A stretch of 64,000 nucleotides of DNA, taken from positions 13,244 through 77,243 of the forward strand of contig CAYYMH010000001.1 of assembly GCA_964472785.1 (NCBI GenBank), written 5' to 3'. How positions within the stretch are numbered: position 1 is the stretch's first letter; the number at the start of each line of letters is the position of its first letter. Positions 40,365-61,150 of this stretch are shown one piece after another. The position numbers were made by a program, and so were the translations under genes. This stretch comes from an uncultured Cytophagia bacterium (GTDB lineage: Bacteria > Zhuqueibacterota > Zhuqueibacteria > Thermofontimicrobiales > Thermofontimicrobiaceae). The notes beneath the pieces are model-generated. The model made no database searches. It was given only the letters and a program-made list of their open reading frames with translations, and had not been told where the DNA came from.

Positions 40365-40539
40365 TGATAACCCCAAAGCTTTGTTAATAAAATGGCTTCG
40401 AGGGAATATAATAAAATATAAAACAAATGTCAATAGTTATTACCCAATAATATTAGCTTGACATGACATTAGCACTATTTCGTGTGTTTCGTGGGCAATA
40501 AATCTAATTTTTCAAAAAGATTCTGATAGCCAATACAAT

Positions 40540-48720: not shown

Positions 48721-49322
48721 AATGATCAATTGGAATTTGAAAAAAATAGGTCGATTTATTCAATAATGATTAAACATATTTTTGTAATCCCCTTAAAAAT
48801 TCTCATTCACCCTAATCCGGATAAACCGGAAACGCAAAATAACACCTTTTGATTAGCTATGCGTTTTCGCCATTAGGCAACTTTGGTAATTGTTTATCTA
48901 AATTTGAAATTCATTTGATATTCAAAATTTGTGTATTTTAATTTTTCTACCAAAAACATACTGAATTTGACCTTCCAGTAATAAATCATTATGAGTCAAA
49001 TTCATTTTGTACTTGACAATAAACATATTTTTTCTTATCATATATTCAAGAAGATTCGGGATCAATAAAACTTTAACGAGGGTCAATGATTATGAAAAAA
49101 CTGCTCGTTTTTCTTGATTCGACGTGACATATTTAAAATCATTCTTTTAATTTTTAGAATTCACTGCGAACATGTCCCAACAGACCTCATCGGATAATGA
49201 GTAACACCTGCCAGAACTGACCCTTTCGAATTGGTTTTATCGGAGCCGTGATTTCTAATTTAAAATAAAATCATTTCCAAAATCGAATAATCTCCCAAAC
49301 CACAAACTTCGGAGACTGAAAC

Positions 49323-49877
49323 ATGACCGAGAACAGTAAGCATTGGGAAATGACCAACATCAGGTTCGGATTTATTGTCTATGAAAAATGCTATCAAACA
49401 GGAGAATTGAGGACTTATTTTTCAGTTGAAGACAACCCAATTTTAGGTGATCGTTATCGTGAAGGAAAAAAACACTGGACGCGAGTAGAGAATGCCCAAT
49501 CGTTTCAATTTGATCTGTTAAACAGGGAGACTGGTAACACGATCAAATTTGATGATCTCATGGGTTTACTTTACTGCACCGAATGCAGAGAAGAATGTGA
49601 ATTATTCAAATTACAAAAAAAACATGAAGCCGAAAAAACAATGGTGATCGTTGCTTTCGGATTTTTCCCTCAAGCGATAAAAAATCCCGTCCCACAGGAA
49701 AAATTAGATGTGCTGACTGATTATTTCAACCAACGACGGGATACGACTCGGTCGAAAATTAAAGTCTTACCTTTCAACTTGATTGACGATCTCTCCCGCT
49801 GCCGTGGAGAATTTTTACACGATGTGGACATGCTCTCAAAAGAGCCGCCACCAAAAGAAAGAAGGCGCTTATTCTAA
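49323..49877 (+). CDS. hypothetical protein, 184 aa, immediately upstream of the sensor module
   Basis: ORF only; no motif recognised. Confidence 0.45.
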   Translation: MTENSKHWEMTNIRFGFIVYEKCYQTGELRTYFSVEDNPILGDRYREGKKHWTRVENAQSFQFDLLNRETGNTIKFDDLMGLLYCTECREECELFKLQKKHEAEKTMVIVAFGFFPQAIKNPVPQEKLDVLTDYFNQRRDTTRSKIKVLPFNLIDDLSRCRGEFLHDVDMLSKEPPPKERRRLF

Positions 49878-49918
49878 ACAAAAAATTATATGACACACGT
49901 AAACCAGGGAGTGAATGA

Positions 49919-50257
49919 ATGACTACAAAAGAATTGTGCGATCAGATGAATTTCAAACAGTTGAGCAAATTTTCTCATAAAGATATCAGTGGCGTCTATG
50001 TATCGGATATGATAAGTGATGTTATGGCTGGAGCGAAATCCGGGGACCTATGGCTGACCATTCAAACTCACAAGAGCATTGTACCGGCGGCTAATCTGGT
50101 TGACGTTTCTGCAGTTGTTATCACAGGCGGAAAACAAGTGCCGCAAGATACCATTGATCTGGCAAGCAAACATGATATCGCGATTCTTAAGACTGATCTG
50201 CCGACTTTTGAAGTAGTAGGCAAACTTTATTCGCTTGGAATAAAGGGCTCTGAATAA
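49919..50257 (+). CDS. DRTGG-domain protein
   Basis: small alpha/beta domain with a VITGG core, typical of DRTGG proteins found in hydrogenase-regulatory (hfs-like) clusters. Confidence 0.55.
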   Translation: MTTKELCDQMNFKQLSKFSHKDISGVYVSDMISDVMAGAKSGDLWLTIQTHKSIVPAANLVDVSAVVITGGKQVPQDTIDLASKHDIAILKTDLPTFEVVGKLYSLGIKGSE

Positions 50258-50333
50258 TTGTATCCATGCAGCATTTCTATTGAAAAAACAATAAAAAATC
50301 AAAAAAAACTAAATTAGTAATCCATGGCCGGTC

Positions 50334-51131
50334 ATGGAAATCAAAACGATTAAAGATGCTTTAAATGCTACCGTGCTTGTGGGTGAAAACGGATTGGAAT
50401 CGACCTTCGAACATGTTTATGCCTCTGATTTAATGAGCGATGTGCTTGCGTTTGGTAAACCCAATTCGATCCTACTCACAGGCTTGGCAACTCAACAGGC
50501 TGTCATTTCAGCGCACATGGCTGAATTTAAGGGTGTTGTCTTTGTTCGCGGTAAGAATCCCAACGACGGATCAATACAGTTTGCTGAAAGTAACGATCTG
50601 ATCCTGCTTACAACAAAAGCCGACATGTACGATGCCTGTGTCAAAGTCGACGCCTTTAAAACCGGAAAATTATCAAAAGCAGTTACTGAGTTAACTGAAA
50701 CAAAAACTGACGAAGTGATTTTAAGCCAGGATTTTAAGATTATGGCAGATGACTTTGCAAATGCTGGCGCTGTTTCAACGGAAATTAAATCGATATTAAA
50801 AAAAATAGGCTTTGATCCCAAAATCATCCGGAGGGTTGCTATTTCCACTTATGAAGCAGAAATGAATGTTGTGATGCATGCGGAACAAGGTAAAGTCAAT
50901 TTATCCATTACCCCCGAATATATTCAAGTACTTATCGATGATGTGGGAAAGGGTATTCCAGATATTGAAATGGCTTTGAAGGAAGGATACACCACCGCAA
51001 CCGATGAAATGAGAGCCATGGGATTTGGCTCAGGCATGGGATTGCCTAATATCAATAAAAATACTGATGAAATGAATCTGGAAAGTGAGATCGGAAAAGG
51101 AACGAGGCTGGAACTAAAATTTAAAATTTAA
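50334..51131 (+). CDS. DRTGG domain fused to a GHKL-type ATPase (RsbW/SpoIIAB-like serine kinase / anti-sigma regulatory factor)
   Basis: N-box YEAEMNVVMHAE, G1 IDDVGKGIPD and G2 GFGSGMGL in the C-terminal half. Confidence 0.65.
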   Translation: MEIKTIKDALNATVLVGENGLESTFEHVYASDLMSDVLAFGKPNSILLTGLATQQAVISAHMAEFKGVVFVRGKNPNDGSIQFAESNDLILLTTKADMYDACVKVDAFKTGKLSKAVTELTETKTDEVILSQDFKIMADDFANAGAVSTEIKSILKKIGFDPKIIRRVAISTYEAEMNVVMHAEQGKVNLSITPEYIQVLIDDVGKGIPDIEMALKEGYTTATDEMRAMGFGSGMGLPNINKNTDEMNLESEIGKGTRLELKFKI

Positions 51132-51162
51132 AAAATAATAGTTATAAAATAAGGTCGAGTCT

Positions 51163-52440
51163 ATGCCACATTATTATCATGCGCATCAGGTCATGCCTGA
51201 AAAGTGCGAAGGTCATATGAAATGTGTGCGCTCTTGTCCCACTCAAGCAATTCGAATCAGAAACGGAAAAGCACAAATAAATGAAGAACTCTGTGTTGAC
51301 TGCGGTACCTGCATTTCTGTTTGTCCTTCAAATGCAATTATACCAGTCACCGATCCGATCGAAGAATTCGATCAGTTTAAATATAAGGTCATTGTTCCGA
51401 CACCGGTTTTGTATTCTCAATTTGACGCTTCAATTCACCCCTACATTATTCATCTCGCATTAAAAAATCTCGGTTTTGATGAAGTAGTTGATGTAAATTA
51501 TTCAACATCGCTTTTGGCCAAAGTTTTGGTCAAATACCTGGAAAACTACACCGGTCAGTTACCCTTAATTTCATCACATTGTCCGTCTTTAATCCGTTTA
51601 ATTCAGGTTAAATATCCGGATTTAGTGGACCAGATTATTCCGTTGGACGTGCCCAGAGAAGTGACTGCCCGAGAAATACGAAAAAATCTGCCGACAAAGA
51701 TTGGCATTCCACCCAATCAAATTGGCATCATTTATATTGCAAACTGTCCGGCTAAAATTGTATCGACAAAACAACCGGCTGAAAAATCCAAATCATGGTT
51801 CGACGGTGTTCTTTCTGTGAAGGATGTTTACGCCTGGCTCTATCCACATGTCATTTCTATTAAGGAAAGCTTCCACGAAGATAAAGTAGAAAAAGATTTT
51901 ACGTTCACTACTGGCTGGTCGCGATTGGGGAGCATCATCAAATCTGCTAAAATGGAGAATTGGATGGCCGTATCCGGATTAGACCATGTGATGAGAGTAT
52001 TGGATGATATTGAAAATTCCAGACTGCGAAATGTGGATTTTTTAGAAGTAATGACGTGCATGTTAGGTTGTATCGGTGGTCCCTTCAATGTGGAAAATGC
52101 TTATGTAGCGCGCGCCAACACCGTTAAACAAGCAATGAAATACGAAACACCTATTGAGATCGATGAAAAATTGATTAAGAAAAAGCTCGAGGAAGGTTAC
52201 TATTATTTCGAGAATCCGATTTTACCAAGACCAACCAAATATTTTGACACTGATTTAATGACGTCAGTAAAACGGATTAAAGAGCGGGATCGCATTTATC
52301 AGAAACTGCCGCAGATTGACTGCGGCTGTTGTGGTGCACCGACCTGTCTGGCATTTGCCGAAGACGTTGTCCGGGGTGAAGCCGAATTGACCGATTGTAT
52401 ATCTTTCTCGCACAAAATTATGAATAAAAATAACGATTAA
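51163..52440 (+). CDS. sensory-type (HydS-like, group C) [FeFe]-hydrogenase homologue: 2x[4Fe-4S] ferredoxin, a degenerate H-cluster domain and a C-terminal Cx2Cx4Cx16C cluster; no PAS domain
   Basis: L1 reads SSHCPS (canonical TSCCPxW), L2 ANCPAK, L3 EVMTCMLGCIGGP; C-terminal DCGCCGAPTC-x16-C. Confidence 0.65.
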   Translation: MPHYYHAHQVMPEKCEGHMKCVRSCPTQAIRIRNGKAQINEELCVDCGTCISVCPSNAIIPVTDPIEEFDQFKYKVIVPTPVLYSQFDASIHPYIIHLALKNLGFDEVVDVNYSTSLLAKVLVKYLENYTGQLPLISSHCPSLIRLIQVKYPDLVDQIIPLDVPREVTAREIRKNLPTKIGIPPNQIGIIYIANCPAKIVSTKQPAEKSKSWFDGVLSVKDVYAWLYPHVISIKESFHEDKVEKDFTFTTGWSRLGSIIKSAKMENWMAVSGLDHVMRVLDDIENSRLRNVDFLEVMTCMLGCIGGPFNVENAYVARANTVKQAMKYETPIEIDEKLIKKKLEEGYYYFENPILPRPTKYFDTDLMTSVKRIKERDRIYQKLPQIDCGCCGAPTCLAFAEDVVRGEAELTDCISFSHKIMNKNND

Positions 52441-52459
52441 AGATTAAGCGAACAGGAGA

Positions 52460-52945
52460 TTGATCGTGGAGAACAATCAATATCAAGAAATCTTTCAGAA
52501 ATTCAGAGGAAACCAAGGTGATTTAATTTCCATCCTGCATCAAGTGCAAAGTAATTTTGGCTATGTTTCACAAGATGCAGTTCAAAATATTTCGAGCTTT
52601 TTGAAAATTTCCGAAAATCAAATCTACGGCGTGGCTTCTTTTTATTCACAGTTTAGATTTGTCGAGCAAGGGAAATGTATCATCAAAATATGTATGGGTA
52701 CTGCCTGCCACGTCCGGGGATCAAAAAATATCCTCGAAGAATTCAAACGCTGGCTGAACATTGAAGAAGGCGAAACAACCGAAGACAAAATGTTTACTTT
52801 GGAAACGGTAAATTGCGTAGGTGCATGTGCGCTGGGTCCAATTGCTATTTTTGACAACGATTATCACGGTCAATTGAAGATAAAAACTGTCGAAGAATTA
52901 ATTCAAAAATATCAGACAGAAATCGAAAGCGAGGAAAGTGAATGA
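52460..52945 (+). CDS. NuoE-like [2Fe-2S] thioredoxin-fold subunit (HydC/BfuC-type). The GTG at 52466 after AGGAG is the likely start
   Basis: CMGTACHVRG...C...C cluster motif. Confidence 0.88.
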   Translation: MIVENNQYQEIFQKFRGNQGDLISILHQVQSNFGYVSQDAVQNISSFLKISENQIYGVASFYSQFRFVEQGKCIIKICMGTACHVRGSKNILEEFKRWLNIEEGETTEDKMFTLETVNCVGACALGPIAIFDNDYHGQLKIKTVEELIQKYQTEIESEESE

Positions 52946-54828
52946 AAGATAAAATCGATAATAAGGTTTTAGACACAATAAAACAGAAGACCGCTAAAAT
53001 TAAAGATAAAAGCAAAATCTGTATTTCCGTCTGCGGTGGAACCGGCTGTCAAGCGCAGGGAGCTAAATTGTTAGTCAGTGTTTTCAGAGAAGAAATTCGA
53101 AAACAGGGGCTGGATAAATCGGTTGATTTATTAACCACCGGCTGTCATGGGTTTTGCGAACAAGGTCCCATTGTTGTTATTCACCCGGAAGGGATTTTTT
53201 ATGGCAGGGTGAAAGTGAAAGACGTGCCAGAGATCGTATCAGAAACAGTGGTCAATAACAAAATTATTCAAAGACTGCTTTATCGCGATCCGAAAACAAG
53301 GGAAAGAATTGTGCGCGAACAGGACATCCCATTTTATAAAAAACAAAAACGGGTTGTCTTTGGCATGAACGGCATATTGGACGCAACCAGTATTGAAGAT
53401 TATATTTATCATGGCGGTTACGAGGCGCTGGCAAAAGCGCTCCGGGATTTTACGCCGGATGGGATCATTGATGAGATAAAGAATTCCGGTCTGCGCGGTC
53501 GCGGCGGCGCGGGTTTCCCCACCGGTAAAAAATGGGAATTGTGCCGTAATACAGCCAGTGACCAAAAATATGTCATCTGCAATGCCGATGAAGGTGATCC
53601 CGGTGCGTTCATGGACCGCAGTGTTTTAGAAGGAAATCCGCACAGCGTAATTGAAGGGATGATTATCGGCGGCTATGCCATCGGCGCGACAGAGGGATAT
53701 ATTTATGTCCGCTTTGAATATCCATTGGCAGTCAAGAATGTTAAACTTGCCATCGAAAAAGCGCGAGAACTCGGACTGCTGGGCAAATCAATTTTAGGCT
53801 CTGATTTTGATTTTGACATTCATGTTTTTCAGGGCGCCGGTGCCTTTGTCTCAGGCGAGGAAACATCGCTGATGGCTTCTATTGAAGGCAGGCGCGCTTT
53901 TCCCAGTCCCAGACCTCCCTATCCGGCAGAGTCCGGAATTTACGGCAAGCCGACCAATATCAACAATGTGGAGACGTGGGCAAATGTCCCGCATATCATT
54001 GCCAAGGGTGCGGACTGGTACGCCAACATCGGCACCGAAGATAGCACAGGGACTAAAATATTTTCACTGGTGGGTAAGATCAACAACACCGGACTGGTGG
54101 AAGTTCCGATGGGCATTACGCTCAGAGAAATCGTTGATGATATTGGCGGCGGTGTAAAAAACAAAAAGCGGTTTAAGGCAATCCAAACAGGTGGTCCCTC
54201 GGGAGGCTGTATTCCCGAAAATATGCTGGATTTGCCAATAGATTACAAAACACTTGCCAAAGCCGGCTCCATCATGGGATCCGGCGGTTTGATCGTGATG
54301 GATGAAGATACGTGCATGGTCGATGTGGCGCTGTATTTTCTGAATTTCACTCAGGAGGAATCCTGCGGAAAATGTGTCCCCTGTCGAATTGGTACGGCGC
54401 AAATGGTCGATATTCTCACTCGAATCACCGCTGGCGAGGGCGAAGAAGCTGACATCGAGCGATTGGAAAATCTCGCCATGACCATGAAAAATCATTCACT
54501 TTGCGGTCTGGGACAAACAGCGCCCAACCCGGTTTTAACGACACTACGCTATTTTAAATCTGAGTATCTGTCGCACATCAAAGATAAAGCCTGTCCGGCT
54601 AAAGTATGCAAAAACTTAGTTGAATTCCGTGTCATTCCGGAAAAATGTACCGGTTGCCAAAGATGTGTTGCCGCCTGTCCCACCGGCGCAATTAGCGGAC
54701 CGCGGGCACAGCCTCATTTTCTCGATCCTAAAAAGTGCATCAAGTGTCGTGCTTGTTACGAAATTTGTAAGTTCGATGCCATCGCCGGAGACGCAATCAT
54801 TATCAGTTCAAAAGGCGAAAGTGCTTAA
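52942..54828 (+). CDS. NuoF-like NADH/FMN-binding subunit with an N-terminal [2Fe-2S] domain and C-terminal 2x[4Fe-4S] ferredoxin (HydB/BfuB-type)
   Basis: GRGGAGFPTGKKW, ESCGKCVPCR and two C-terminal CxxCxxCxxxCP motifs. Confidence 0.9.
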   Translation: MKDKIDNKVLDTIKQKTAKIKDKSKICISVCGGTGCQAQGAKLLVSVFREEIRKQGLDKSVDLLTTGCHGFCEQGPIVVIHPEGIFYGRVKVKDVPEIVSETVVNNKIIQRLLYRDPKTRERIVREQDIPFYKKQKRVVFGMNGILDATSIEDYIYHGGYEALAKALRDFTPDGIIDEIKNSGLRGRGGAGFPTGKKWELCRNTASDQKYVICNADEGDPGAFMDRSVLEGNPHSVIEGMIIGGYAIGATEGYIYVRFEYPLAVKNVKLAIEKARELGLLGKSILGSDFDFDIHVFQGAGAFVSGEETSLMASIEGRRAFPSPRPPYPAESGIYGKPTNINNVETWANVPHIIAKGADWYANIGTEDSTGTKIFSLVGKINNTGLVEVPMGITLREIVDDIGGGVKNKKRFKAIQTGGPSGGCIPENMLDLPIDYKTLAKAGSIMGSGGLIVMDEDTCMVDVALYFLNFTQEESCGKCVPCRIGTAQMVDILTRITAGEGEEADIERLENLAMTMKNHSLCGLGQTAPNPVLTTLRYFKSEYLSHIKDKACPAKVCKNLVEFRVIPEKCTGCQRCVAACPTGAISGPRAQPHFLDPKKCIKCRACYEICKFDAIAGDAIIISSKGESA

Positions 54829-54846
54829 TTAAAGAAGGAGTTTACA

Positions 54847-55344
54847 ATGAAAAATCCCAAAATACCATTTTATAGATTATTCTTATTAATTCTCATCGTT
54901 TGCCCGGGTTCGCTATTTTCCCAAACCATTGAGCAAAAGAATATCGGATTGCTTAAGCAATTAATTGAGGTTGGTTACAATCAACGAAATTTTGAAATCG
55001 TTGATCAGATTGTGGACTCAAACTACGTTGAAAATACCAACGGCATTACGGCAAAATCACCTGAAGTTGTCAAACAAACAATAACTTATCTTGCTGAAGA
55101 GTCCCCGAATTTTAAACTGGTGATCGACGATGTCATTGCACAGGGAGATAAGGTTGCGTTACGCTGGATATATAGCGGACATAACAAGAAGCATGATAAG
55201 CAGGTCATTATTCACGGTATGTTTTTTTGCACGATTAAAGACGGAAAACTTGTGGAGAGCTGGCAAATTTTTGATAATTTGACCCGTTTCAAACAATTGG
55301 GATTTAACCTCACACCACCGATACCAAATGAAGATAATGAATAA
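54847..55344 (+). CDS. secreted SnoaL-like / NTF2-fold (ester-cyclase-like) protein
   Basis: signal peptide plus the SnoaL-like pattern ...GDKVALRWIYSGHN...DGKLVESWQIFDNLTRFKQLG. Confidence 0.6.
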   Translation: MKNPKIPFYRLFLLILIVCPGSLFSQTIEQKNIGLLKQLIEVGYNQRNFEIVDQIVDSNYVENTNGITAKSPEVVKQTITYLAEESPNFKLVIDDVIAQGDKVALRWIYSGHNKKHDKQVIIHGMFFCTIKDGKLVESWQIFDNLTRFKQLGFNLTPPIPNEDNE

Positions 55345-55398
55345 AAACTTACAGCAACTCATAATTGTTGACACAAGAAAATTCAAAGCGGAGTTTTC

Positions 55399-57897
55399 AT
55401 GAACCAGAAAAACGGAACGATTAAGATCACCATTGACGACAACGTTTTAAACGTTAAAAAAGGCATTTCCATACTCGACGCTGCCGAGCAGAATGATATT
55501 TTCATCCCATCGCTTTGTGCCTACGAATCGCTGGATCCGCATGGCGGTTGCCGCGTTTGTATCGTCGAAGTCGAAGGGAAAAAAGGCTTCCTTAAATCAT
55601 GTGCTACTCCGGTTCAAGAGGGAATGGTTGTTCGAACAAACACAGATACAGTTCAGGGCGAACGAAAAAAAATTCTGCAATTACTGCTGAGCGAACACAC
55701 GTCCAGTTGTTTGATCTGTGAAGAAAAAGAAGAATGCCGGAATTCAATGAGCACGATTCGCAAAGTCGGCGTGACCACCGGCTGTCGCTACTGTCCCGGC
55801 GACAACAAATGTGAATTACAAAAGGTTGTGGAATGGGTCGGCGTTGATGAACTGATTTACCCGACTTATTACCGGAATTTGCCGGTTGAAAAAGAAGATC
55901 CGTTTTACGATCGCGACTACAATCTGTGTATTCTTTGCGGCAGATGTGTCCGTGTTTGCCACGAAGTGCGCAGCGCCAACACGCTGGCATTTAATCAGCG
56001 CGGACGGGATACTGTGATCGGTCCCGCTTTTGGCAGGAATCACATCGAAGCTGGTTGTGAGTTTTGCGGCGCCTGTGTCGAGGTCTGCCCCACTGGCGCG
56101 CTTTCGGAAAAAGCGAATAAGTGGGACGGGATTCACGAAACCGAGGAGATCTCCACCTGCGCATTGTGCGGAGTTGGCTGCCAGATTAAAGTCCTGTCCA
56201 AAGGTGATAAATTGATCGGCACGCTGCCTGCAGAAGATGAATTGGTAAATGACGGGCATCTTTGTGTGAAAGGCAGATTTTGTATTTATGAATTAGTCAA
56301 TAATTATCAGCGATTGAAAAAAGCAATCAAACTTAAAGAAGGCTCGCAGCTTCAGATACCGATTGACGAAGCCGTTAAAATCGCAGCAGAAAAACTTGCC
56401 GATTGCAAGCCGGATGAATTCGGCATGATCATTTCGCCCAACTGCACTGTAGAAGATTTGTACATCGCTCAGAAATTTACGCGTCACGTCATGAGCTCTC
56501 ACCATATCGACACCTCTGCCCGGCTGTTTTATGGTGCCGGTTTTAACAGTTATTTAAAATTAATGAAAAAGAGCACGACGCTCAAGAATATGAAAAATTC
56601 CTCGCTGATTTTTGGAATCGGCGCAGATTTGAGATATGGTAGGTCGGTAGTTGGCGTTGCTATCAGAAACGCAATTCATAGAGGCGCCAAAATAATTACT
56701 ATTCATCCCCACGACCACAGCCTTGTGCTCAGCAGCGATGTCTGGATTCAGCCGACTCCGGGAGAGGAAGCAGATATTTTAAATTCGTTATCGAATATTT
56801 TGGAGGATAATGAAAAGAAAAAAGTCAGTGCTGACCTATCAAAAATCGCTGACTTGTTGAAAGGGGCGGAAAATCCGATTTTCTTGATCGGCACAGAATT
56901 TCTGAATTACTCAAACAGCGCTGAAATACTTGAATTAGTCAACAAAATAGCGGAAAAAATTAATGCCGAAATTTTAACGCTGCCGGCACAAAATAATCTG
57001 TACGGTTCGTTGCTCATGGGCAATTACCCGGAGCTTTTGCCCGGCGGCAGTCATTCGAGCGACAAAAAGACTGTGGCTGATCTCGGTAAACTCTGGGGTA
57101 AAGAGATGCCGGTTTACAAAAATGGCTGGGATTTAAATAAAATTGTATCTGGTCAAAAATTGAAAGTTGCATATCTCGTGGGTGAAACACCGCCGATCCC
57201 GGAACCGATTTCAGAATATCTGATTTATCAAAATATTTATCCGCTGGATCACGTTCAAACCGCCAATTTGACCTTTCCGGCTGCTGCGTTCACAGAAGTG
57301 GACGGCACATTTATTAACGGCGAAGGCAGAATCCAACCGATCAAAAAATCTGTCTCTGCCCCCGGCGACGCATTACCGGATTGGCAAATTCTCTGCAAAA
57401 TCGCACAAAAAATGGGTGCGTCCGGATTTGATTTTAATTCAATAGCAGACATCCACACAGAAATCGGCAAGGTCGTGGACGCGTTTAAGGATAAAGACCG
57501 GTTCGCCAGAAAAGCCCAACCTTTGCCAGATTCAATACAGATTAAATCTCATAAAACTGATAAAACCGGGATCAAAACCAGCAGTAAAAATAAACTATTT
57601 ATTTTAACGGCAATTCCCCTTGAGCACGTTTACCGGGGAATTCCTTTGACCAGCAAAGTTGAGGGGTTAAAAAAGCTGTTTGATGAAAGTGTCGTTGTGT
57701 TGAACAACGCTGATGCTGAAAAAATGAATATTACAAACGGAGAAAAACTAAAAATTAGCTCGGACGAGTTTTCCGGCACCTTTCCGGTGTGGATTTCCGC
57801 CGGACAAAAAACGGGAACTGTTCACATCACAAACTTAAATTTTTCACCATCAACACCAAATCCGCAATTCGTAAAATTGGAGAGAGAACATGTTTAA
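55399..57897 (+). CDS. NuoG-like subunit (BfuA-type): [2Fe-2S], His-ligated and 2x[4Fe-4S] N-terminus plus a cofactor-less molybdopterin-oxidoreductase fold. It has neither an H-cluster nor a Mo active-site Cys/Sec
   Basis: CALCGVGC MopB cluster. The position matching formate-dehydrogenase CARV(U/C)HGPS reads SARLFYGAG. Confidence 0.85.
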   Translation: MNQKNGTIKITIDDNVLNVKKGISILDAAEQNDIFIPSLCAYESLDPHGGCRVCIVEVEGKKGFLKSCATPVQEGMVVRTNTDTVQGERKKILQLLLSEHTSSCLICEEKEECRNSMSTIRKVGVTTGCRYCPGDNKCELQKVVEWVGVDELIYPTYYRNLPVEKEDPFYDRDYNLCILCGRCVRVCHEVRSANTLAFNQRGRDTVIGPAFGRNHIEAGCEFCGACVEVCPTGALSEKANKWDGIHETEEISTCALCGVGCQIKVLSKGDKLIGTLPAEDELVNDGHLCVKGRFCIYELVNNYQRLKKAIKLKEGSQLQIPIDEAVKIAAEKLADCKPDEFGMIISPNCTVEDLYIAQKFTRHVMSSHHIDTSARLFYGAGFNSYLKLMKKSTTLKNMKNSSLIFGIGADLRYGRSVVGVAIRNAIHRGAKIITIHPHDHSLVLSSDVWIQPTPGEEADILNSLSNILEDNEKKKVSADLSKIADLLKGAENPIFLIGTEFLNYSNSAEILELVNKIAEKINAEILTLPAQNNLYGSLLMGNYPELLPGGSHSSDKKTVADLGKLWGKEMPVYKNGWDLNKIVSGQKLKVAYLVGETPPIPEPISEYLIYQNIYPLDHVQTANLTFPAAAFTEVDGTFINGEGRIQPIKKSVSAPGDALPDWQILCKIAQKMGASGFDFNSIADIHTEIGKVVDAFKDKDRFARKAQPLPDSIQIKSHKTDKTGIKTSSKNKLFILTAIPLEHVYRGIPLTSKVEGLKKLFDESVVVLNNADAEKMNITNGEKLKISSDEFSGTFPVWISAGQKTGTVHITNLNFSPSTPNPQFVKLEREHV

Positions 57898-58735
57898 AGT
57901 CGTTGAAAATAAAATGATTGTTCCCAATATGCATTCGCTGACGGTGGAAGCGCCGGACGTGGTGCAGGACATCCGGCCCGGTCAATTTGTCATTTTAAGG
58001 TCAGAGGATGATGGCGAACGAATTCCATTCTCAATTTCTGACTGGAATAAGGAAGAAAAAACTGTAACCGTGGTATTTATGAACGTCGGAACGACGACCA
58101 ATAAATTAGCGGCACTTGAGGAAGGCAGCTACATTCCAACTGTGGTCGGTCCGCTGGGACTGGCAACCGAGATTGATAATTACGGCACGGTTTTGTGTCT
58201 GGGAGGCTGTTACGGAATCGGCAGCATTTACCCAATCGCCAGAGCGCTGAAAGAGGAAGGCAACCGAGTGATTACGGTGATCGAAGCGCGCAGCTCATAT
58301 CTTTTTTATTGGGAAGACAAATTGAAGCAGGTGTCGGACCAACTCTTTTTTATTACCCGCGACGGGACCAAAGGGAACCGTGGTCATGTCAACAAATTAC
58401 CGGAGATTATTAAAATTTCTGGCGGCTCCGTGGATCGCGTTATTATCAATGGCTGCACATATTTGGTCAAACGCGGATCAGAAGTAACGCGTCCCATGGA
58501 AATCAAGACCATCGTCAGTCTGGCGCCGATTATGATTGACGGCACCGGAATGTGCGGTGTCTGCCGTGTATCCATTGGTGAGAACACGCGGTTTGCCTGC
58601 GTTCACGGCCCCGACTTTGATGGTCATCAGGTGAACTGGGATGAATTGCTGCAACGACGAAAAATGTATTTCTCTGAGGAAGTTGTCCCGCTTCAGACCA
58701 GTAGATGCGAGGAGCATTCGCAGCATTTAAGCTAA
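57890..58735 (+). CDS. NfnA / SudB-like FAD + [2Fe-2S] subunit (PyrK family)
   Basis: ferredoxin-reductase-like fold and C-terminal GMCGVCRV...CVHGP cluster. Confidence 0.8.
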   Translation: MFKVVENKMIVPNMHSLTVEAPDVVQDIRPGQFVILRSEDDGERIPFSISDWNKEEKTVTVVFMNVGTTTNKLAALEEGSYIPTVVGPLGLATEIDNYGTVLCLGGCYGIGSIYPIARALKEEGNRVITVIEARSSYLFYWEDKLKQVSDQLFFITRDGTKGNRGHVNKLPEIIKISGGSVDRVIINGCTYLVKRGSEVTRPMEIKTIVSLAPIMIDGTGMCGVCRVSIGENTRFACVHGPDFDGHQVNWDELLQRRKMYFSEEVVPLQTSRCEEHSQHLS

Positions 58736-58860
58736 AAGATTTGCCACCGAGATACAGAGAACTCGGAGAAATTATATAAAAATTATTATAGAGTACCTCT
58801 GAACTCTGTGCCTTTGCGGCATTCAATTTTCGACTGAACAATTATTAACACTCAAAATAA

Positions 58861-60282
58861 ATGAGGAACAGAGACATGCCCGAGAAGCAAAAGAAAAAAA
58901 TCGACTTGAACCGCCGCGAAATGCCCAAACAGTCCGAGGAAGTCCGCAGACAAAACTTCGATGAAGTAGCACTCGGCTATCCAGAGCAAACAGCAATTGA
59001 CGAAGCCATCCGTTGTTTGCAATGCAAAAAACCGAATTGTGTTGCAATGTGTCCTGTGGAAATTGACATCCCCGGTTTTATCGAGAGGATTGCTGAACGC
59101 GATTTTGAAGAAGGCGTTCGCGTGTTAAAGGACCAAAATTTGTTACCTGCTATATGTGGGCGAGTGTGTCCCCAGGAAGAACAATGCGAAAAAGGGTGCA
59201 TTTTAAATAAAAAGGGAGCGCCGGTTGCCATCGGTCGATTGGAACGTTTTTTAGCGGATTGGGAAGCGAAACAGGGCGAAGCAGAAATTCCTGCGCTGCC
59301 AAAATCGACCGGTAAAAAAGTGGGCATCGTGGGTGGCGGACCAGCCGGACTGACTGTCGCCGGCGATTTAATCAAGCTGGGACACGCGGTAACAATTTTT
59401 GAAGCGCTGCATGATATGGGCGGGGTGCTCGTTTACGGTATCCCGGAATTCCGGCTGCCCAAAGCGATTGTGAAACGTGAAGTCGATTATTTGAAAAAAC
59501 TGGGCGTAAAAATTATCACGGATTATGTTGTAGGCAAAACACGTACACTTGATCGCTTGCTGGAAGAATTTGACGTCATTTTTGTCGGCTCCGGCGCCGG
59601 ACTGCCCTGGTTTATGGAAGTGCCGGGAGAAAATCTGAACGGTGTTTATTCTGCCAACGAATATCTGACGCGCATGAATTTGATGAAAGGGTATCTGTTC
59701 CCTCAGTATGACACACCGATAAAAAATCACAAACGCGTGGCAGTCATCGGCGGCGGAAATGTCGCCATGGATTGTGCCCGAACAGCGTTGAGATTGGGCG
59801 CGGATGAGGTGCAAATCATTTACCGTCGTTCACGCCAGGAAATGCCCGCCCGTGAAGAAGAGATCGAAAATGCGGAAGAAGAAGGCGTGGTGTTCAATTA
59901 TTTAACCTTGCCCGTTAATTATATTGGCAATGAAAATGGCTGGGTCACAGAAATCGAATGCCTGAAAATGGAACTGGGAGAACCGGACGCTTCCGGACGG
60001 CGACGCCCTGTTCCCATTGAAGGTTCCAACTACATCATTCCCATGGATGCGGTAGTGTGCGCCATTGGCAACAGCCCCAATCCGCTGATCCCGGAAACCA
60101 CTCCCGGGCTGGAAGTCGGAAAATGGGGCAACATTAAAGCGGACGAGGAAACCGGCAAAACATCCAAAGACCGTGTCTGGGCTGGCGGAGATGTCGTGTC
60201 CGGTGCCGCCACCGTTATTTTAGCCATGGGCGCCGGCAGAATTGCTGCCCGGTCGATGCAGGAATATTTGATGTCGCATTGA
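58861..60282 (+). CDS. NfnB / SudA / GltD-like subunit (2x[4Fe-4S] + FAD + NAD(P)H)
   Basis: CLQCKKPNCVAMCPV, GGGPAGL and VIGGGNVAMDCA dinucleotide motifs. Confidence 0.88.
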   Translation: MRNRDMPEKQKKKIDLNRREMPKQSEEVRRQNFDEVALGYPEQTAIDEAIRCLQCKKPNCVAMCPVEIDIPGFIERIAERDFEEGVRVLKDQNLLPAICGRVCPQEEQCEKGCILNKKGAPVAIGRLERFLADWEAKQGEAEIPALPKSTGKKVGIVGGGPAGLTVAGDLIKLGHAVTIFEALHDMGGVLVYGIPEFRLPKAIVKREVDYLKKLGVKIITDYVVGKTRTLDRLLEEFDVIFVGSGAGLPWFMEVPGENLNGVYSANEYLTRMNLMKGYLFPQYDTPIKNHKRVAVIGGGNVAMDCARTALRLGADEVQIIYRRSRQEMPAREEEIENAEEEGVVFNYLTLPVNYIGNENGWVTEIECLKMELGEPDASGRRRPVPIEGSNYIIPMDAVVCAIGNSPNPLIPETTPGLEVGKWGNIKADEETGKTSKDRVWAGGDVVSGAATVILAMGAGRIAARSMQEYLMSH

Positions 60283-60349: not shown

Positions 60350-61150
60350 ATGGTGAAAAGAAATCTTCTTTTTTCACATTTTCTGGTTATTATCTTTTTA
60401 TCTCACAACCTCCTCCACTCACAGAGCATTACTGATACAGACAATAACTTGAAGAACTATTTTGATAACAAATTTTATTTCGGCGCAATAGCGGGCATTT
60501 CGAGTCTTCGAGTTCTGCCTCATTTTTTTATCGAAGACGAAATTTCAGAATTGCCCCGAATAAACATGTTTACGTATGGAGCTCGTATCGGGAAAAGATT
60601 TTTCTTCCATGAAAGCATTTTTATACTTATTGAAGCCGGTTTTTGTCACGGAAAAGGTCAATTGGAAGTCGAGCTTACTGACCGATATAATCCCTCTAAT
60701 CAAAAAAGAAACGTAAAAAGAGATGTCTCAAATACCATGTTTGGAGGAGTATTAGGCTTATGGGCTCCGATTTATCAGAATTTCAATAATCAATCCCTAT
60801 TTGCCCCCAAAGCCATCCTCGTAGACATAAAAATCGGTGGCGATATTATGCTAATACGGGAGGATACGAACCAATCATATCACAAAACATATATTACGCC
60901 AGAGGGTGGTCAAATAACAATTACCGGACATTATGATGAGGAAATAATTGAGGCTGATGATCGGGTTCTATTTTCAATCGGCTTGGGACTTGATTATGTG
61001 TTAAGCCGCCATTTTCTGGTCAAGCTGGAAGCGAACATCGGTGCCTATCCTGTATCAGGTCCCGGCAACGCCCAAGGGGAACCTACAGGTCCACCGGATG
61101 AGTGGGGCAACAATCGGTCACTACTCATCGGTCTCGATTTTATTTTATGA
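60350..61150 (+). CDS. secreted hypothetical protein, possibly an outer-membrane beta-barrel
   Basis: signal peptide and C-terminal alternating hydrophobic pattern ending ...GLDFIL. Confidence 0.45.
   Translation: MVKRNLLFSHFLVIIFLSHNLLHSQSITDTDNNLKNYFDNKFYFGAIAGISSLRVLPHFFIEDEISELPRINMFTYGARIGKRFFFHESIFILIEAGFCHGKGQLEVELTDRYNPSNQKRNVKRDVSNTMFGGVLGLWAPIYQNFNNQSLFAPKAILVDIKIGGDIMLIREDTNQSYHKTYITPEGGQITITGHYDEEIIEADDRVLFSIGLGLDYVLSRHFLVKLEANIGAYPVSGPGNAQGEPTGPPDEWGNNRSLLIGLDFIL

What the first reader, a model, noticed from the sequence alone, without database searches (positions are those of the whole stretch)
52460..60282. Bfu-type NuoE/NuoF/NuoG-like genes in one block with nfnA-nfnB and no recognisable catalytic module
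Five co-directional genes encode a NuoE-like and a NuoF-like subunit, a NuoG-like subunit and, 8-nt-overlapped downstream, NfnA(PyrK-like) and NfnB(GltD-like). The NuoF-like subunit carries an extra N-terminal [2Fe-2S] domain and C-terminal ferredoxin clusters. The NuoG-like subunit has all N-terminal clusters but a cofactor-less MopB fold. This NuoEFG-like core is the hallmark of HydABC-type flavin-based electron-bifurcating (Bfu-family) enzymes. Here the usual third module, an H-cluster or a Mo/W formate-dehydrogenase site, is absent and an NADP(H)-reactive NfnAB pair sits in its place. The inference is a multi-subunit NADH/ferredoxin/NADP(H) transhydrogenase-like bifurcating complex of a composition I cannot match to a characterised enzyme.
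Basis: partly seen in the sequence, partly recalled or inferred. Interest (0 to 1): 0.75.

Follow-up and report, generated by a model that had tools for sequence, protein, structure and literature searches.

The report
Split Bfu–NfnAB redox operon
A tightly packed operon, conserved across more than ten bacterial phyla, joins the NADH/ferredoxin core of one electron-bifurcating enzyme family (Bfu) to a complete copy of a second, unrelated one (NfnAB); no such combination has been characterised, and it probably balances the cell's NADH, NADPH and ferredoxin pools.

Summary
The five genes exist as described. bfuC (NuoE-like) is at 52460-52945, bfuB (NuoF-like, with every Bfu-specific cluster motif) at 52942-54828, and bfuA (NuoG-like with a degenerate MopB domain) at 55399-57897. 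nfnA is at 57890-58735 (8-nt overlap with bfuA) and nfnB at 58861-60282.

A SnoaL-like ORF (54847-55344) sits between bfuB and bfuA and is unique to this genome. A divergent HydA-like gene, with DRTGG/HATPase genes and a Cys-rich orf184, lies directly upstream (49323-52440).

In every one of 80 related loci whose contig reaches far enough, from more than ten phyla, the five-gene core is syntenic. bfuA overlaps nfnA in 59 of 77 loci. BfuA, NfnA and NfnB co-evolve (r 0.79-0.92), whereas BfuB and BfuA do not (r 0.40). About ten loci carry the core with no other redox gene nearby.

The three Fdh catalytic residues are replaced in all 73 BfuA orthologues, so this is not a formate dehydrogenase.

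The closest characterised enzymes are StnABC/NfnABC (Nfn-Bfu), where an NfnB-like domain is fused into BfuA and NfnA is absent. Here the module is unfused and NfnAB is canonical.

Verdict: a new, widespread, uncharacterised variant of a known kind. The physical complex and its reaction remain inferred.

The parts
49323..49877 (+). orf184: 184-aa protein with no family match. Five conserved Cys (C23, C85, C88, C92, C160). First gene of the extended cluster.
   Evidence: No Pfam or NCBIfam hit. Found in the same position in 51 loci. Cys conservation 98-100%. The best sigma-70-like promoter match of the region lies upstream at 49013-49041 (weak evidence).
49919..50257 (+). Small DRTGG-domain protein (112 aa).
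   Evidence: Weak DRTGG hit on the identical public contig. Conserved in 55 loci, always next to orf184.
50334..51131 (+). DRTGG + HATPase_c protein (265 aa), resembling an anti-sigma-factor kinase. Putative regulator.
   Evidence: Pfam HATPase_c, HATPase_c_2 and DRTGG. NCBIfam spIIAB 48.5 bits, below its cut-off. Conserved in 53 loci.
51163..52440 (+). HydA-like protein (425 aa): 2x[4Fe-4S] ferredoxin domain, [FeFe]-hydrogenase H-domain fold and a C-terminal Cys4 'FeS' domain. Probably a sensor or accessory protein, not the catalytic third module.
   Evidence: PF02906 112 bits, PF04060 52 bits. Below the cut-off of every NCBIfam [FeFe]-hydrogenase model (128 vs 450). Cluster-ligand Cys C140, C195 and C303 are 100% conserved and C299 78%, but the position that is the proton-relay Cys in true hydrogenases (own knowledge) is variable here: His in 26 of 58 orthologues, then Tyr and Ser among the three commonest residues printed. 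Absent within 10 kb in about ten loci that keep the five-gene core.
52460..52945 (+). bfuC: NuoE/HydC-like [2Fe-2S] subunit (159-161 aa).
   Evidence: PF01257 165 bits. NuoE NF005722 146.5 bits vs cut-off 141. Overlaps bfuB by 4 nt here, and overlaps in 68 of 69 loci.
52942..54828 (+). bfuB: NuoF/HydB-like FMN/NAD(H) subunit (628 aa), with an N-terminal [2Fe-2S] domain and a C-terminal 2x[4Fe-4S] domain.
   Evidence: Full-length matches to solved BfuB subunits: 7t2r_B 869 bits over res 28-614; also HydB, Tsi/Csac NfnB and StnB. Nqo1 gives 425 bits over res 140-549 only. It has TCMVD, CGKCVPC, CGLG, SHIKDKACPAKVC, DEGDPGAFMDR and GAGAFV, the Bfu-specific residues of Schut 2022 Supp. Figs 9-10.
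54847..55344 (+). SnoaL-like ORF (165 aa, signal-peptide-like N-terminus). A lineage-specific insertion, probably not part of the system.
   Evidence: PF07366 66 bits. No homologue in any of 80 related loci. Absent in the closest relative with context, where bfuB overlaps bfuA.
55399..57897 (+). bfuA: NuoG/FdsA-like Fe-S subunit (832 aa). It has a [2Fe-2S], a His-ligated [4Fe-4S], 2x[4Fe-4S], a MopB [4Fe-4S] and a degenerate (pterin-site-less) MopB domain.
   Evidence: Pfam. PDB: FdsA 293 bits, StnC 202, NiFe-HydA 201, Csac NfnA 190. Below the NCBIfam cut-offs for NuoG (317 vs 470) and Fdh-alpha (242 vs 666). AF2 gives MopB pLDDT >90. Foldseek best matches are FdsA and NuoG.
55696..55812 (+). 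Family-specific Cys-rich loop in BfuA (H100-C104-C107-C113 ... TIRKxGVTTG-C129-RY-C132 ... C138). It has three Cys more than the usual HxxxCxxCx5C motif, and it lies at the site where the NfnB-like domain is inserted in StnC/NfnA of Nfn-Bfu enzymes.
   Evidence: 100% conserved in 73 orthologues, together with H215. Absent in FdsA and NiFe-HydA. The insertion point is read from the alignments to 8oh5_C and 9bov_A and to 9bov_A and 9n5u_A. Not resolved by AF2 (pLDDT <50).
57890..58735 (+). nfnA: NfnS/PyrK-like FAD + [2Fe-2S] subunit (281 aa).
   Evidence: 255 bits to P. furiosus NfnI-S, 209 to T. maritima NfnA. NF004862 339 bits vs cut-off 220. The D-C-C-C cluster motif (IMIDGTGMCGVCR...FAC) is kept. 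Overlaps bfuA by 8 nt here, and overlaps in 59 of 77 loci.
58861..60282 (+). nfnB: NfnL/GltD-like FAD/NADP(H) + 2x[4Fe-4S] subunit (473 aa; probable true start 58876, 468 aa).
   Evidence: 598 bits full-length to T. maritima NfnB and 528 to Pfu NfnI-L, but only 288-346 to the fused GltD domains of Stn/NfnABC. TIGR01316 594 bits vs cut-off 472. It keeps the canonical-only CPQEEQCE motif and the LMKGYLFPQYDTPIK loop.

Best explanation
[quoted passage not shown] Its third-substrate module is a complete, unfused NfnAB (NfnSL) pair.

Proposed roles. BfuB/BfuC (NuoF/NuoE-like) form the conserved core, which binds NAD(H) at FMN and ferredoxin at the C-terminal clusters. BfuA (NuoG-like) is an iron-sulfur wire whose molybdopterin domain is a dead scaffold, as in StnC and NfnA of Nfn-Bfu. 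NfnB supplies the FAD/NADP(H) site. NfnA contributes a second FAD/[2Fe-2S], and possibly a second NAD(H) site.

Proposed reaction. Most likely the complex reversibly couples NADPH oxidation to reduction of NAD+ and ferredoxin (or the reverse, making NADPH), like StnABC/NfnABC. Electrons would pass between NfnAB and the BfuBC core through BfuA, probably entering near the family-specific Cys-rich loop.

Upstream genes. The HydA-like, DRTGG/HATPase, DRTGG and orf184 genes are an optional regulatory, sensory or accessory module.

Shown versus inferred. Shown: domain and motif content, operon structure, conservation, co-evolution, absence of Fdh catalytic residues. Inferred: the physical complex, the electron path, the stoichiometry, and whether the NfnB flavin still bifurcates.
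For: 1. The BfuBC core is genuine. There are full-length matches to solved BfuB subunits (869-698 bits), against 425 bits over the central part only for Nqo1. All B1/B2 ligands and the Bfu-type NADH/FMN motifs are present.

2. Synteny. The bfuC-bfuB-bfuA-nfnA-nfnB core occurs in every one of the 80 most similar loci whose contig reaches far enough. These come from species-level genomes of Zixibacteria, Ignavibacteria, Calditrichota, KSB1, Acidobacteriota, Bacteroidia, Planctomycetota, Aminicenantes, Anaerolineae, Deltaproteobacteria and others; 581 relatives were detected in all.

3. Junctions. bfuA->nfnA overlaps in 59 of 77 loci and lies within 30 nt in 14 more. bfuC->bfuB overlaps in 68 of 69, and bfuB->bfuA in 56 of 70. 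The median nfnA->nfnB gap is 11 nt.

4. Co-evolution. Distance-matrix correlations are BfuA-NfnA 0.92, BfuA-NfnB 0.87 and NfnA-NfnB 0.79, against BfuB-BfuA 0.40. In L074 and L078, bfuC-bfuB moved away while bfuA-nfnA-nfnB stayed contiguous.

5. Minimal unit. About ten loci have the five genes flanked only by unrelated genes, so no other third module is available there.

6. Precedent. In StnABC and Csac/Tsi NfnABC an NfnB-like domain is fused into a NuoG/Fdh-like subunit whose pterin site is empty. These enzymes bifurcate NADPH to NAD+ and Fd (PMC10482914, PMC11829005, PMC12018979). The fusion point coincides with the conserved Cys-rich loop of this BfuA.

7. Geobacter SfrAB is a purified enzyme made of a NuoG-like and a GltD-like subunit (cited in PMC7483475).
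Against: NfnA and NfnB are canonical in every motif checked and about 60% identical to stand-alone T. maritima NfnB. They could therefore work alone as an ordinary transhydrogenase that is merely co-expressed.

A complex holding two bifurcating sites that use the same three substrates has no obvious thermodynamic advantage. Simple serial schemes I worked through either waste ferredoxin or are endergonic at physiological potentials (my own reasoning).

The literature states that organisms have either Nfn or Stn, and that Stn has no NfnA (PMC10482914).

No interface could be modelled: the Fe-S region of BfuA had pLDDT <50.

In this particular window the operon is loosened by the SnoaL insertion and by a 125-nt nfnA-nfnB gap.
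Confidence: 0.55

Rival explanations
1. Two separate enzymes share one operon. One is an ordinary stand-alone NfnAB transhydrogenase. The other is a BfuABC complex whose third partner is something else: the upstream HydA-like protein acting as a hydrogenase subunit, or a partner encoded elsewhere. They are co-regulated because both manage the NAD(P)H/ferredoxin pools.
For: NfnAB is canonical in sequence. A HydA-like gene with all four H-cluster [4Fe-4S] Cys ligands lies 19 nt upstream of bfuC here, and is in the cluster in 58 loci. The published view is that Nfn and Bfu-type transhydrogenases are alternatives (PMC10482914).
Against: The HydA-like gene is missing within 10 kb in about ten loci that keep the five-gene core. 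It shows no Cys among the commonest residues at the position that is the proton-relay Cys in true hydrogenases, and it fails every hydrogenase family cut-off. The same accessory genes accompany Bfu operons that have their own catalytic subunit (my own knowledge of Thermotoga/Thermoanaerobacter hyd operons; not tested here). BfuA co-evolves with NfnA and NfnB far more tightly than with BfuB, and stays glued to nfnA when bfuCB move. A BfuABC without any third substrate would have no net reaction.
Confidence: 0.25
2. The NuoG-like protein is the catalytic subunit of an NAD(P)+-linked or bifurcating formate dehydrogenase (FdhA + NuoEF; Fdh-Bfu type 1), and Nfn merely lies beside it. This is how a comparable gene neighbourhood (fdhA with nuoE/nuoF-like genes and Nfn genes close by) was read in Margulisbacteria and Saganbacteria.
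For: The best sequence and fold matches of BfuA are FdsA-type formate dehydrogenases. JGI annotates many homologues as 'formate dehydrogenase alpha subunit'. PMC6349859 proposed an FDH next to Nfn.
Against: The Mo/W-ligand Cys/Sec, the catalytic His and the catalytic Arg are F377, Y378 and P529 here. They are never C/U, H or R in 73 orthologues. The protein scores 242 bits against the Fdh-alpha cut-off of 666. The equivalent domain in Csac NfnA has no pterin, and in StnC it is inactive (PMC11829005, PMC10482914).
Confidence: 0.03
3. The NuoEFG-like genes are a detached electron-input module for a membrane complex (a Nuo-Bfu-type complex I or another partner encoded elsewhere). NfnAB sits adjacent for redox balancing.
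For: Schut 2022 predicts Nuo-Bfu complexes with a BfuABC input module. Many anaerobes carry 11-subunit complex I without an N-module (PMC5317091).
Against: No nuoA-N genes were seen in the window or next to the core in the ten loci whose flanks were listed. In predicted Nuo-Bfu clusters the BfuABC genes sit inside the nuo operon. This reading does not explain the invariant bfuA-nfnA coupling.
Confidence: 0.07

Closest known systems
StnABC (Sporomusa ovata) / NfnABC = Nfn-Bfu (Caldicellulosiruptor saccharolyticus, Thermococcus sibiricus); PDB 8OH5, 9BOV, 9N5U
   Same: A BfuBC-type NuoE/NuoF core with extra clusters. BfuB scores 700-749 bits to StnB and Tsi/Csac NfnB. The NuoG/Fdh-like subunit has a dead pterin site. 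The third module is an NfnB/GltD-type FAD/NADP(H) module. The expected substrates are NADH, NADPH and ferredoxin.
   Different: There, the GltD domain is fused into BfuA and NfnA is absent ('no NfnA homologue in Stn'). The fused flavin in StnC is non-bifurcating, and the fused domains lack the CPQExQCE motif and a 9-residue loop. Here NfnB is a separate, canonical polypeptide (598 bits to Tm NfnB against 288-346 to the fused domains). A full NfnA is also present. BfuA carries a Cys-rich loop at the point where the fused enzymes have the insertion.
NfnAB / NfnSL (T. maritima 4YLF, P. furiosus NfnI 5JCA)
   Same: NfnB is about 60% and NfnA about 45-50% identical to these, with all cluster, FAD and NADPH motifs checked retained.
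   Different: The characterised NfnAB enzymes are self-sufficient heterodimers. Here nfnA is translationally coupled to a NuoG-like gene and is always accompanied by BfuBC genes. The cluster-linked NfnBs form their own clade relative to the two stand-alone references tested.
Geobacter sulfurreducens SfrAB (NADPH-dependent soluble Fe(III) reductase / proposed NADPH:ferredoxin oxidoreductase)
   Same: A purified enzyme made of a NuoG/Fdh-like subunit and a GltD-like NADPH subunit (as cited in PMC7483475; further details are from my own knowledge). It is a precedent for a physical NuoG-like:GltD-like partnership.
   Different: SfrAB has no NuoE/NuoF-type subunits and no NfnA. No sequence comparison was run here.
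FdsABG-type NAD+-dependent formate dehydrogenase (R. capsulatus 6TG9) and Fdh-Bfu
   Same: Best sequence and fold match for BfuA, and the same NuoE/NuoF/NuoG-like trio.
   Different: The catalytic Cys/Sec, His and Arg are all replaced. FdsB lacks the Bfu-specific clusters (Schut 2022).
HydABC / NiFe-HydABCSL bifurcating hydrogenases
   Same: Highest-scoring BfuB matches (7t2r_B 869 bits, 7q4v_B 795, 8a6t_B 770). The same accessory gene set (HydA-like, DRTGG, HATPase) accompanies such operons (my own knowledge).
   Different: BfuA has no H-cluster domain and there are no NiFe subunits. The only hydrogenase-like protein is the divergent, optional upstream HydA-like gene.

Membership tests
Bfu family (BfuBC core; Schut et al. 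2022) | BfuB carries the FMN/NADH domain, the B1 [4Fe-4S], the B2 ligands (Cys438, His525, Cys531, Cys536 in A. mobile numbering) and a C-terminal 2x[4Fe-4S] (B3/B4). | tested here: met
   The motifs TCMVD, CGKCVPC, CGLG and SHIKDKACPAKVC are present. Fer4 covers res 564-613. There are full-length alignments to solved BfuBs.
Bfu family (BfuBC core; Schut et al. 2022) | Bfu-type NADH/FMN motifs (DEGDPGAFMDR and GAGAFV), as opposed to the non-bifurcating DE(G/S)EP.../GAGAY forms. | tested here: met
   The sequence reads VICNADEGDPGAFMDRS and GAGAFVSGEE, compared with Supp. Fig. 10.
Bfu family (BfuBC core; Schut et al. 2022) | BfuC is a NuoE-like thioredoxin-fold [2Fe-2S] protein encoded next to BfuB. 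| tested here: met
   PF01257 165 bits, with a 4-nt overlap with bfuB.
Bfu family (BfuBC core; Schut et al. 2022) | BfuA homologue with at least a [2Fe-2S] domain and a 4Fe-4S ferredoxin-type domain. | tested here: met
   Fer2_4, Fer4_Nqo3 and Fer4_7. All cluster Cys are 100% conserved in 73 orthologues.
Bfu family (BfuBC core; Schut et al. 2022) | Tightly coupled bifurcating activity with NAD(H), ferredoxin and a third substrate. | not testable with these tools
   Requires the purified enzyme.
Nfn-Bfu / Stn (Type 1 Bfu) | An NfnL/GltD-like FAD/NADPH domain fused within the BfuA polypeptide, giving a three-subunit enzyme without an NfnS/NfnA homologue. | tested here: not met
   BfuA (832 aa) has no Pyr_redox or Fer4_20 domain. 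The GltD-like protein is a separate 473-aa gene, and a PyrK-like NfnA is present.
Nfn-Bfu / Stn (Type 1 Bfu) | An Fdh/NuoG-like domain in BfuA that lacks a functional pterin site. | tested here: met
   F377, Y378 and P529 replace Cys/Sec, His and Arg. Absence of the cofactor itself was not measured.
NfnAB / NfnSL | NfnB has two [4Fe-4S] motifs (including CPQExQCE), an FAD and an NADPH Rossmann fold (YRR), and the PEFRLPK arginine. | tested here: met
   Residue-by-residue alignment to 4ylf_B and 5jca_L. TIGR01316 594 bits vs cut-off 472.
NfnAB / NfnSL | NfnA has an Asp+3Cys [2Fe-2S] motif and an FAD/NAD(H) FNR-like fold. | tested here: met
   The sequence IMIDGTGMCGVCR...FAC aligns with 5jca_S. 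RIPFS and GGxxGxxxIYP are retained. NF004862 339 bits vs cut-off 220.
NfnAB / NfnSL | Functions as a self-sufficient heterodimer. | not testable with these tools
   Context argues for coupling to BfuA, but no biochemistry is available.
Mo/W formate dehydrogenase (FdsA/FdhF type) | Cys or Sec ligand to Mo/W, the adjacent His, and the catalytic Arg (RGQNN motif). | tested here: not met
   ARVCH becomes ARLFY and PLRGQNN becomes LPAQNN. None of 73 orthologues has these residues. Fdh-alpha scores 242 bits vs cut-off 666.
[FeFe]-hydrogenase (for the upstream 425-aa HydA-like protein) | H-domain motifs L1 (TSCCP), L2 (MPCxxK) and L3 (ExMxCxxGC), with four Cys ligands and the proton-relay Cys. | tested here: inconclusive
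   The four ligand Cys and the Lys are present (SSHCP, NCPAK, EVMTCMLGC). The relay-Cys position is His here and variable among 58 orthologues (His, Tyr and Ser are the three commonest residues printed). All NCBIfam hydrogenase models are below cut-off.
Respiratory complex I N-module (NuoEFG) | NuoF without the extra N- and C-terminal cluster domains, encoded within or with nuoA-N. | tested here: not met
   Extra domains are present. No nuo membrane-arm genes were seen in the window or next to the core in the ten loci whose flanks were listed. NuoG scores 317 bits vs cut-off 470.

The most novel reading that the evidence does not exclude
The five proteins form one complex holding two mechanistically different bifurcation sites in series: the NfnB flavin, and the BfuBC FMN/iron-sulfur 'flavobicluster'. 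They would be wired through BfuA via an extra metal centre ligated by the invariant C113/C129/C132 (+H215) loop. Such a complex would have a stoichiometry or redox reach different from both Nfn and Stn. It would also be the unfused ancestor-like form from which Nfn-Bfu enzymes arose, by insertion of NfnB into that very loop and loss of NfnA.
Probability: 0.25. Interest if true: 0.8.

Novelty: new variant of a known kind. Interest (0 to 1): 0.62.

Why it matters
Electron-bifurcating enzymes set the NADH/NADPH/ferredoxin balance of anaerobes. The field currently treats NfnSL and Bfu-type (Stn/NfnABC) transhydrogenases as unrelated, mutually exclusive solutions to the same reaction. An operon that welds a complete NfnSL to a BfuABC core is present in hundreds of species-level genomes. 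These include abundant sediment and subsurface phyla (Zixibacteria, Ignavibacteria, Calditrichota, KSB1, Acidobacteriota, Planctomycetota, Anaerolineae and others).

If it is one complex, three things follow.
- It adds a subunit architecture that is missing from the published Bfu classification.
- It suggests how the fused enzymes evolved.
- It offers a natural system for asking whether two bifurcation sites can work in series.

There is also a practical point. The NuoG-like gene is widely mis-annotated as formate dehydrogenase, and nfnAB as sulfide dehydrogenase or glutamate synthase. This distorts metabolic reconstructions of these uncultured lineages.

Tried and rejected
- AF2 monomer of BfuA (65-sequence alignment). 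The MopB domain is confident, but the Fe-S region 99-242 has pLDDT <50. Neither the extra Cys loop nor a docking surface could be assessed. Foldseek only restated the FdsA/NuoG fold.
- Linker-fused multimer model.
- Promoter and terminator scan. Counts were at or near shuffle expectation. There is no convincing terminator inside the cluster, and the hairpin in the nfnA-nfnB gap is weak. No conclusion about transcription can be drawn.
- Rfam on the whole window: no hits.
- Organism identity. The exact-sequence look-up returned no name. From protein identities the nearest relatives are KSB1 and an unclassified MAG. Not resolved further.
- Literature. No paper in the held library describes a BfuABC + NfnSL gene cluster. 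A search combining DRTGG with hydrogenase/NuoF/bifurcating terms listed no paper containing DRTGG. Absence from this library is not proof of absence.
- Formate-dehydrogenase reading: rejected on catalytic residues.
- HydA-like protein as the obligatory catalytic module: rejected because it is dispensable in about ten loci and has no Cys at the relay-Cys position here.
- Complex I N-module reading: rejected on domain content and context.
- Simple serial-bifurcation energetics (my own reasoning). These gave no scheme clearly better than canonical Nfn, so the stoichiometry is left open.

Full report
**1. What is in the window**

The + strand from 49323 to 60282 carries ten co-directional ORFs separated by -8 to +125 nt. 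Pfam and NCBIfam give the following.
- orf184, 49323-49877: no family.
- Small DRTGG protein, 49919-50257.
- DRTGG + HATPase_c protein, 50334-51131.
- HydA-like protein, 51163-52440: Fer4 + Fe_hyd_lg_C + PF04060.
- NuoE-like protein, 52460-52945.
- NuoF-like protein, 52942-54828: an extra N-terminal thioredoxin-like [2Fe-2S] domain and C-terminal Fer4 domains.
- SnoaL-like ORF, 54847-55344.
- NuoG-like protein, 55399-57897: all N-terminal cluster domains plus a MopB domain.
- PyrK-like NfnA, 57890-58735.
- GltD-like NfnB, 58861-60282.

The SnoaL ORF inside the interval and the HydA-like gene 19 nt upstream of it were missed.

The same sequence is present on a 39-kb Logan contig and a 287-kb NCBI contig, neither of which carries an organism name.

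The rest of the window is housekeeping: FolC, Rho, RF1, PrmC, MutL, MiaA, Lon, TrkH, ClC, sigma-54 regulators, an acyl-CoA-dehydratase-activase-like protein and an IS630 fragment. It contains no hydA, hydEFG, fdh or nuo membrane genes. Downstream of nfnB there is only an unannotated signal-peptide ORF, followed by opposite-strand genes.

**2. The NuoE/NuoF-like pair is a BfuBC core**

The 628-aa protein aligns end to end with solved BfuB subunits:
- A. mobile NiFe-HydB 7t2r_B: 869 bits, res 28-614.
- HydB 7q4v_B and 8a6t_B.
- T. sibiricus and C. saccharolyticus NfnB, 9n5u_B and 9bov_B.
- StnB 8oh5_B.
- T. maritima HydB 7p5h_B.

Nqo1 scores 425 bits and covers only res 140-549.

The sequence was read against Supplementary Figures 9 and 10 of Schut et al. 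2022. It has every residue that separates bifurcating from non-bifurcating homologues: TCMVD, CGKCVPC, CGLG, SHIKDKACPAKVC, DEGDPGAFMDR and GAGAFV. The N-terminal domain keeps its four Cys (C31, C36, C68, C72; read).

**3. The NuoG-like protein is not a formate dehydrogenase**

Its best sequence and fold matches are FdsA-type Fdh alpha subunits and NuoG. In the alignments, however, ARVCH (the Mo ligand Cys and the His) is ARLFY, and PLRGQNN (the catalytic Arg) is LPAQNN.

In 73 orthologues these positions are F/Y/S/E/L, Y/L/I and P/Y/S/N/H. They are never C/U, H or R. The protein falls below the NCBIfam cut-offs for both NuoG and Fdh-alpha. AF2 models the MopB part confidently.

A pterin-less Fdh-like domain is exactly what the structures of StnC and Csac NfnA show (PMC10482914; PMC11829005).

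**4. NfnA and NfnB are canonical**

NfnB scores 598 bits full-length against T. maritima NfnB and 528 against P. furiosus NfnI-L. It scores only 288-346 against the GltD-like domains fused into StnC and Csac/Tsi NfnA. It keeps the CPQEEQCE cluster motif and a 9-residue loop that the fused domains lack. It also keeps the PEFRLPK arginine and the YRR NADPH signature. NfnA matches NfnI-S (255 bits) and retains the Asp+3Cys [2Fe-2S] motif.

**5. The arrangement is conserved, and the five genes are the unit**

A scan of one genome per GTDB species with an alignment of the NuoG-like family found 581 relatives. The 80 best were fetched. tblastn with the window proteins shows bfuC-bfuB-bfuA-nfnA-nfnB in the same order in every locus with enough sequence. 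The loci come from Zixibacteria, Ignavibacteria, Calditrichota, KSB1, Latescibacterota, Gemmatimonadota, Acidobacteriota, Bacteroidia, Planctomycetota, Aminicenantes, WOR-3, Krumholzibacteria, Anaerolineae and Deltaproteobacteria.

Junction statistics:

| Junction | Overlapping | Other |
|---|---|---|
| bfuC/bfuB | 68 of 69 | |
| bfuB/bfuA | 56 of 70 | |
| bfuA/nfnA | 59 of 77 (mostly -8 nt, as here) | 14 more within 30 nt |
| nfnA-nfnB | | median gap 11 nt |

The orf184/DRTGG/HATPase/HydA-like genes are upstream in the FCB-type and Acidobacteriota loci. In Planctomycetota, Aminicenantes and others the HATPase/HydA-like pair is downstream of nfnB. In about ten Anaerolineae, Deltaproteobacteria and other loci these four genes are absent within 10 kb. 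There the core is flanked by unrelated genes: TsaD, a phosphoribosyltransferase, MatE, an Mrp-type ATPase, an esterase, and STAS-domain proteins.

In L074 and L078, bfuC-bfuB have moved behind the HydA-like gene while bfuA-nfnA-nfnB stay contiguous.

Pairwise-distance correlations over 51 complete loci:
- BfuA-NfnA 0.92
- BfuA-NfnB 0.87
- NfnA-NfnB 0.79
- BfuC-BfuB 0.88
- BfuB-BfuA 0.40
- BfuB-NfnA 0.33

There are thus two co-inherited modules, {BfuC, BfuB} and {BfuA, NfnA, NfnB}, and the first has been exchanged between lineages.

In a neighbour-joining tree the cluster-linked NfnBs form one clade. It excludes the two stand-alone references (T. maritima, P. furiosus), with the fused GltD domains as outgroup. 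With only two references this is a weak test.

**6. A family-specific feature of BfuA**

FdsA and NiFe-HydA have a single HxxxCxxCx5C-ELQ motif. This family instead has H100-x3-C104-x2-C107-x5-C113, then 15 residues (TIRKxGVTTG), then C129-x2-C132-x5-C138-ELQ.

That is three additional Cys. All of them, and H215, are 100% conserved in 73 orthologues.

The alignments to StnC and to Csac and Tsi NfnA show that the NfnB-like domain of those fused enzymes is inserted at exactly this loop. Kremp et al. 2020 noted two Cys-rich motifs flanking the GltD insertion.

I infer that this loop marks the contact or wiring site for NfnB (or NfnA), and may bind an extra metal centre. AF2 did not resolve it, so this remains unexplained.

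**7. The upstream HydA-like protein**

It has the H-domain fold (PF02906, profile positions 24-245 of 245). It also has the four Cys that ligate the [4Fe-4S] part of the H-cluster, and the L2 Lys (SSHCP, NCPAK, EVMTCMLGC).

Against this, the position that is the proton-relay Cys in true hydrogenases (own knowledge) is His here and varies among 58 orthologues; the three commonest residues printed are His, Tyr and Ser. The protein also fails all curated hydrogenase models.

It is found with a kinase-like HATPase protein and DRTGG proteins, it is optional, and STAS-domain genes occupy its place in two Deltaproteobacteria loci. I therefore read it as a sensory, regulatory or accessory module. This is an inference. 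The recollection that the same gene set accompanies hydABC operons in Thermotogae and Firmicutes is my own knowledge and was not tested.

**8. Mechanism**

The best-supported reading is a split Nfn-Bfu. NADP(H) reacts at the NfnB FAD. Electrons travel through the NfnAB clusters and the BfuA wire to the BfuBC core, where NAD(H) and ferredoxin react.

The overall reaction would be that of Stn/NfnABC: NADH + reduced Fd + 2 NADP+ = NAD+ + oxidised Fd + 2 NADPH, reversibly.

The following are not known:
- whether NfnA's NAD(H) site and NfnB's bifurcating flavin remain active, which would give two bifurcation sites;
- which NfnAB cofactor contacts BfuA;
- the stoichiometry.

The main rival is simple co-expression of a self-sufficient NfnAB with a BfuABC that has another partner. 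The minimal loci, the rearranged loci and the co-evolution pattern argue against it. Only biochemistry or a confident multimer model can settle the matter.

**9. Comparison with what is known, and novelty**

Schut et al. 2022 list Nfn-Bfu only as a Type 1 three-subunit enzyme with a fused domain. No BfuABC + NfnSL type appears in their text or their Supplementary Table 1.

Kumar et al. 2023 state that Stn has no NfnA homologue and that most species have either Nfn or Stn.

In Margulisbacteria and Saganbacteria, fdhA with adjacent nuoE/nuoF-like genes and Nfn genes close by was read as 'FDH' plus 'Nfn' (PMC6349859). I did not verify that those loci belong to this family. One family member (P0021, 55% identity to the window protein) does come from a candidate division WOR-1 genome.

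The Caldithrix abyssi genome paper mentions only 'SudBA sulfide dehydrogenase'. Whether those genes lie in this cluster was not checked.

Some members may also have been counted as 'Fdh-Bfu' in Schut 2022. That is my inference and is untested.

Within the searchable library I found no description of this five-subunit type.

It fails the defining feature of Nfn-Bfu (fusion, no NfnS). It meets the sequence-level definitions of both the BfuBC core and NfnSL. I therefore class it as a new variant of a known kind: widespread, uncharacterised and commonly mis-annotated.

**10. Peculiarities of this window**

The SnoaL-like insertion breaks the usual bfuB/bfuA overlap (a 570-nt gap). It is absent in all 80 loci, and in the closest relative with context (65% identity).

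The nfnA-nfnB gap (125 nt, or 140 nt if nfnB starts at 58876) is longer than the median of 11 nt. It contains only a weak hairpin.

These features loosen the operon here. They do not change the family-level conclusion.

Noticed in passing
window 54847-55344 (+): A SnoaL-like 165-aa ORF with a signal-peptide-like N-terminus is inserted between bfuB and bfuA. It has no counterpart in 80 related loci or in the closest relative. A secreted-looking protein inside a cytoplasmic redox operon is odd.
   Followed up: partly
window 49323-49877 (+); same position in 51 loci: orf184 is a protein with no family match. It has 98-100% conserved Cys at C23, C85, C88, C92 and C160 (CxxCxxxC plus two more). It always leads the cluster together with a 112-aa DRTGG protein. 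It could be an unrecognised metal-binding subunit or assembly factor.
   Followed up: partly
window 55696-55812 (+), BfuA residues 100-138, and H215: An invariant extra three-Cys loop (C113, C129, C132; TIRKxGVTTGCRYCP) and an invariant His215 are absent from FdsA and NiFe-HydA. The loop is located where the NfnB-like domain is inserted in the fused Stn/NfnABC enzymes. It may be an additional metal site.
   Followed up: partly
L043 4103-7225 and L077 970-4149: In an unclassified MAG and a Phycisphaerae MAG the NuoF-like protein is 1040-1059 aa long. Its C-terminal 2x[4Fe-4S] ferredoxin-binding domain is replaced by a GltD-like Fer4_20 + Pyr_redox_2 domain. bfuA-nfnA-nfnB still follow.
   Followed up: partly
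L074 and L078 (Eubacteriales-labelled and Aminicenantes MAGs): Rearranged clusters: orf184-DRTGG-bfuA-nfnA-nfnB-DRTGG-HATPase-HydA-like-bfuC-bfuB. The BfuBC genes moved, while bfuA-nfnAB stayed together.
   Followed up: yes
Loci L003, L004, L033, L041, L060 compared with the rest: There are two classes of BfuC/BfuB. The window's BfuB is 69-76% identical to those of a few Ignavibacteria, Deltaproteobacteria and other loci, but only about 50-56% identical to most FCB-group loci. BfuA identity does not follow this split. This indicates exchange of the BfuBC module between lineages.
   Followed up: partly
L041 6856-7203 and L060 6664-7182: In Desulfomonilaceae-type loci a STAS-domain (anti-anti-sigma-like) gene lies upstream of bfuC, where other lineages have the HATPase/HydA-like genes. 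This hints at partner-switching regulation of the operon.
   Followed up: no
window 39229-39921 (-) and 39918-40433 (-): A fragment of an IS630-family transposase (230 aa, matching profile positions 110-299), with an adjacent 171-aa ORF. It is probably a split or decayed insertion sequence.
   Followed up: no
window 15885-18950 (-): A 1021-aa protein with an acyl-CoA dehydratase activase (BcrAD/HgdC-like) domain. Two sigma-54-dependent activators lie nearby (13896-15284 and 24380-25717). This is consistent with an anaerobic lifestyle.
   Followed up: no
window 60350-61150 (+): A 266-aa ORF with a signal peptide and no family match lies directly after nfnB. It is not found in any related locus.
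   Followed up: no
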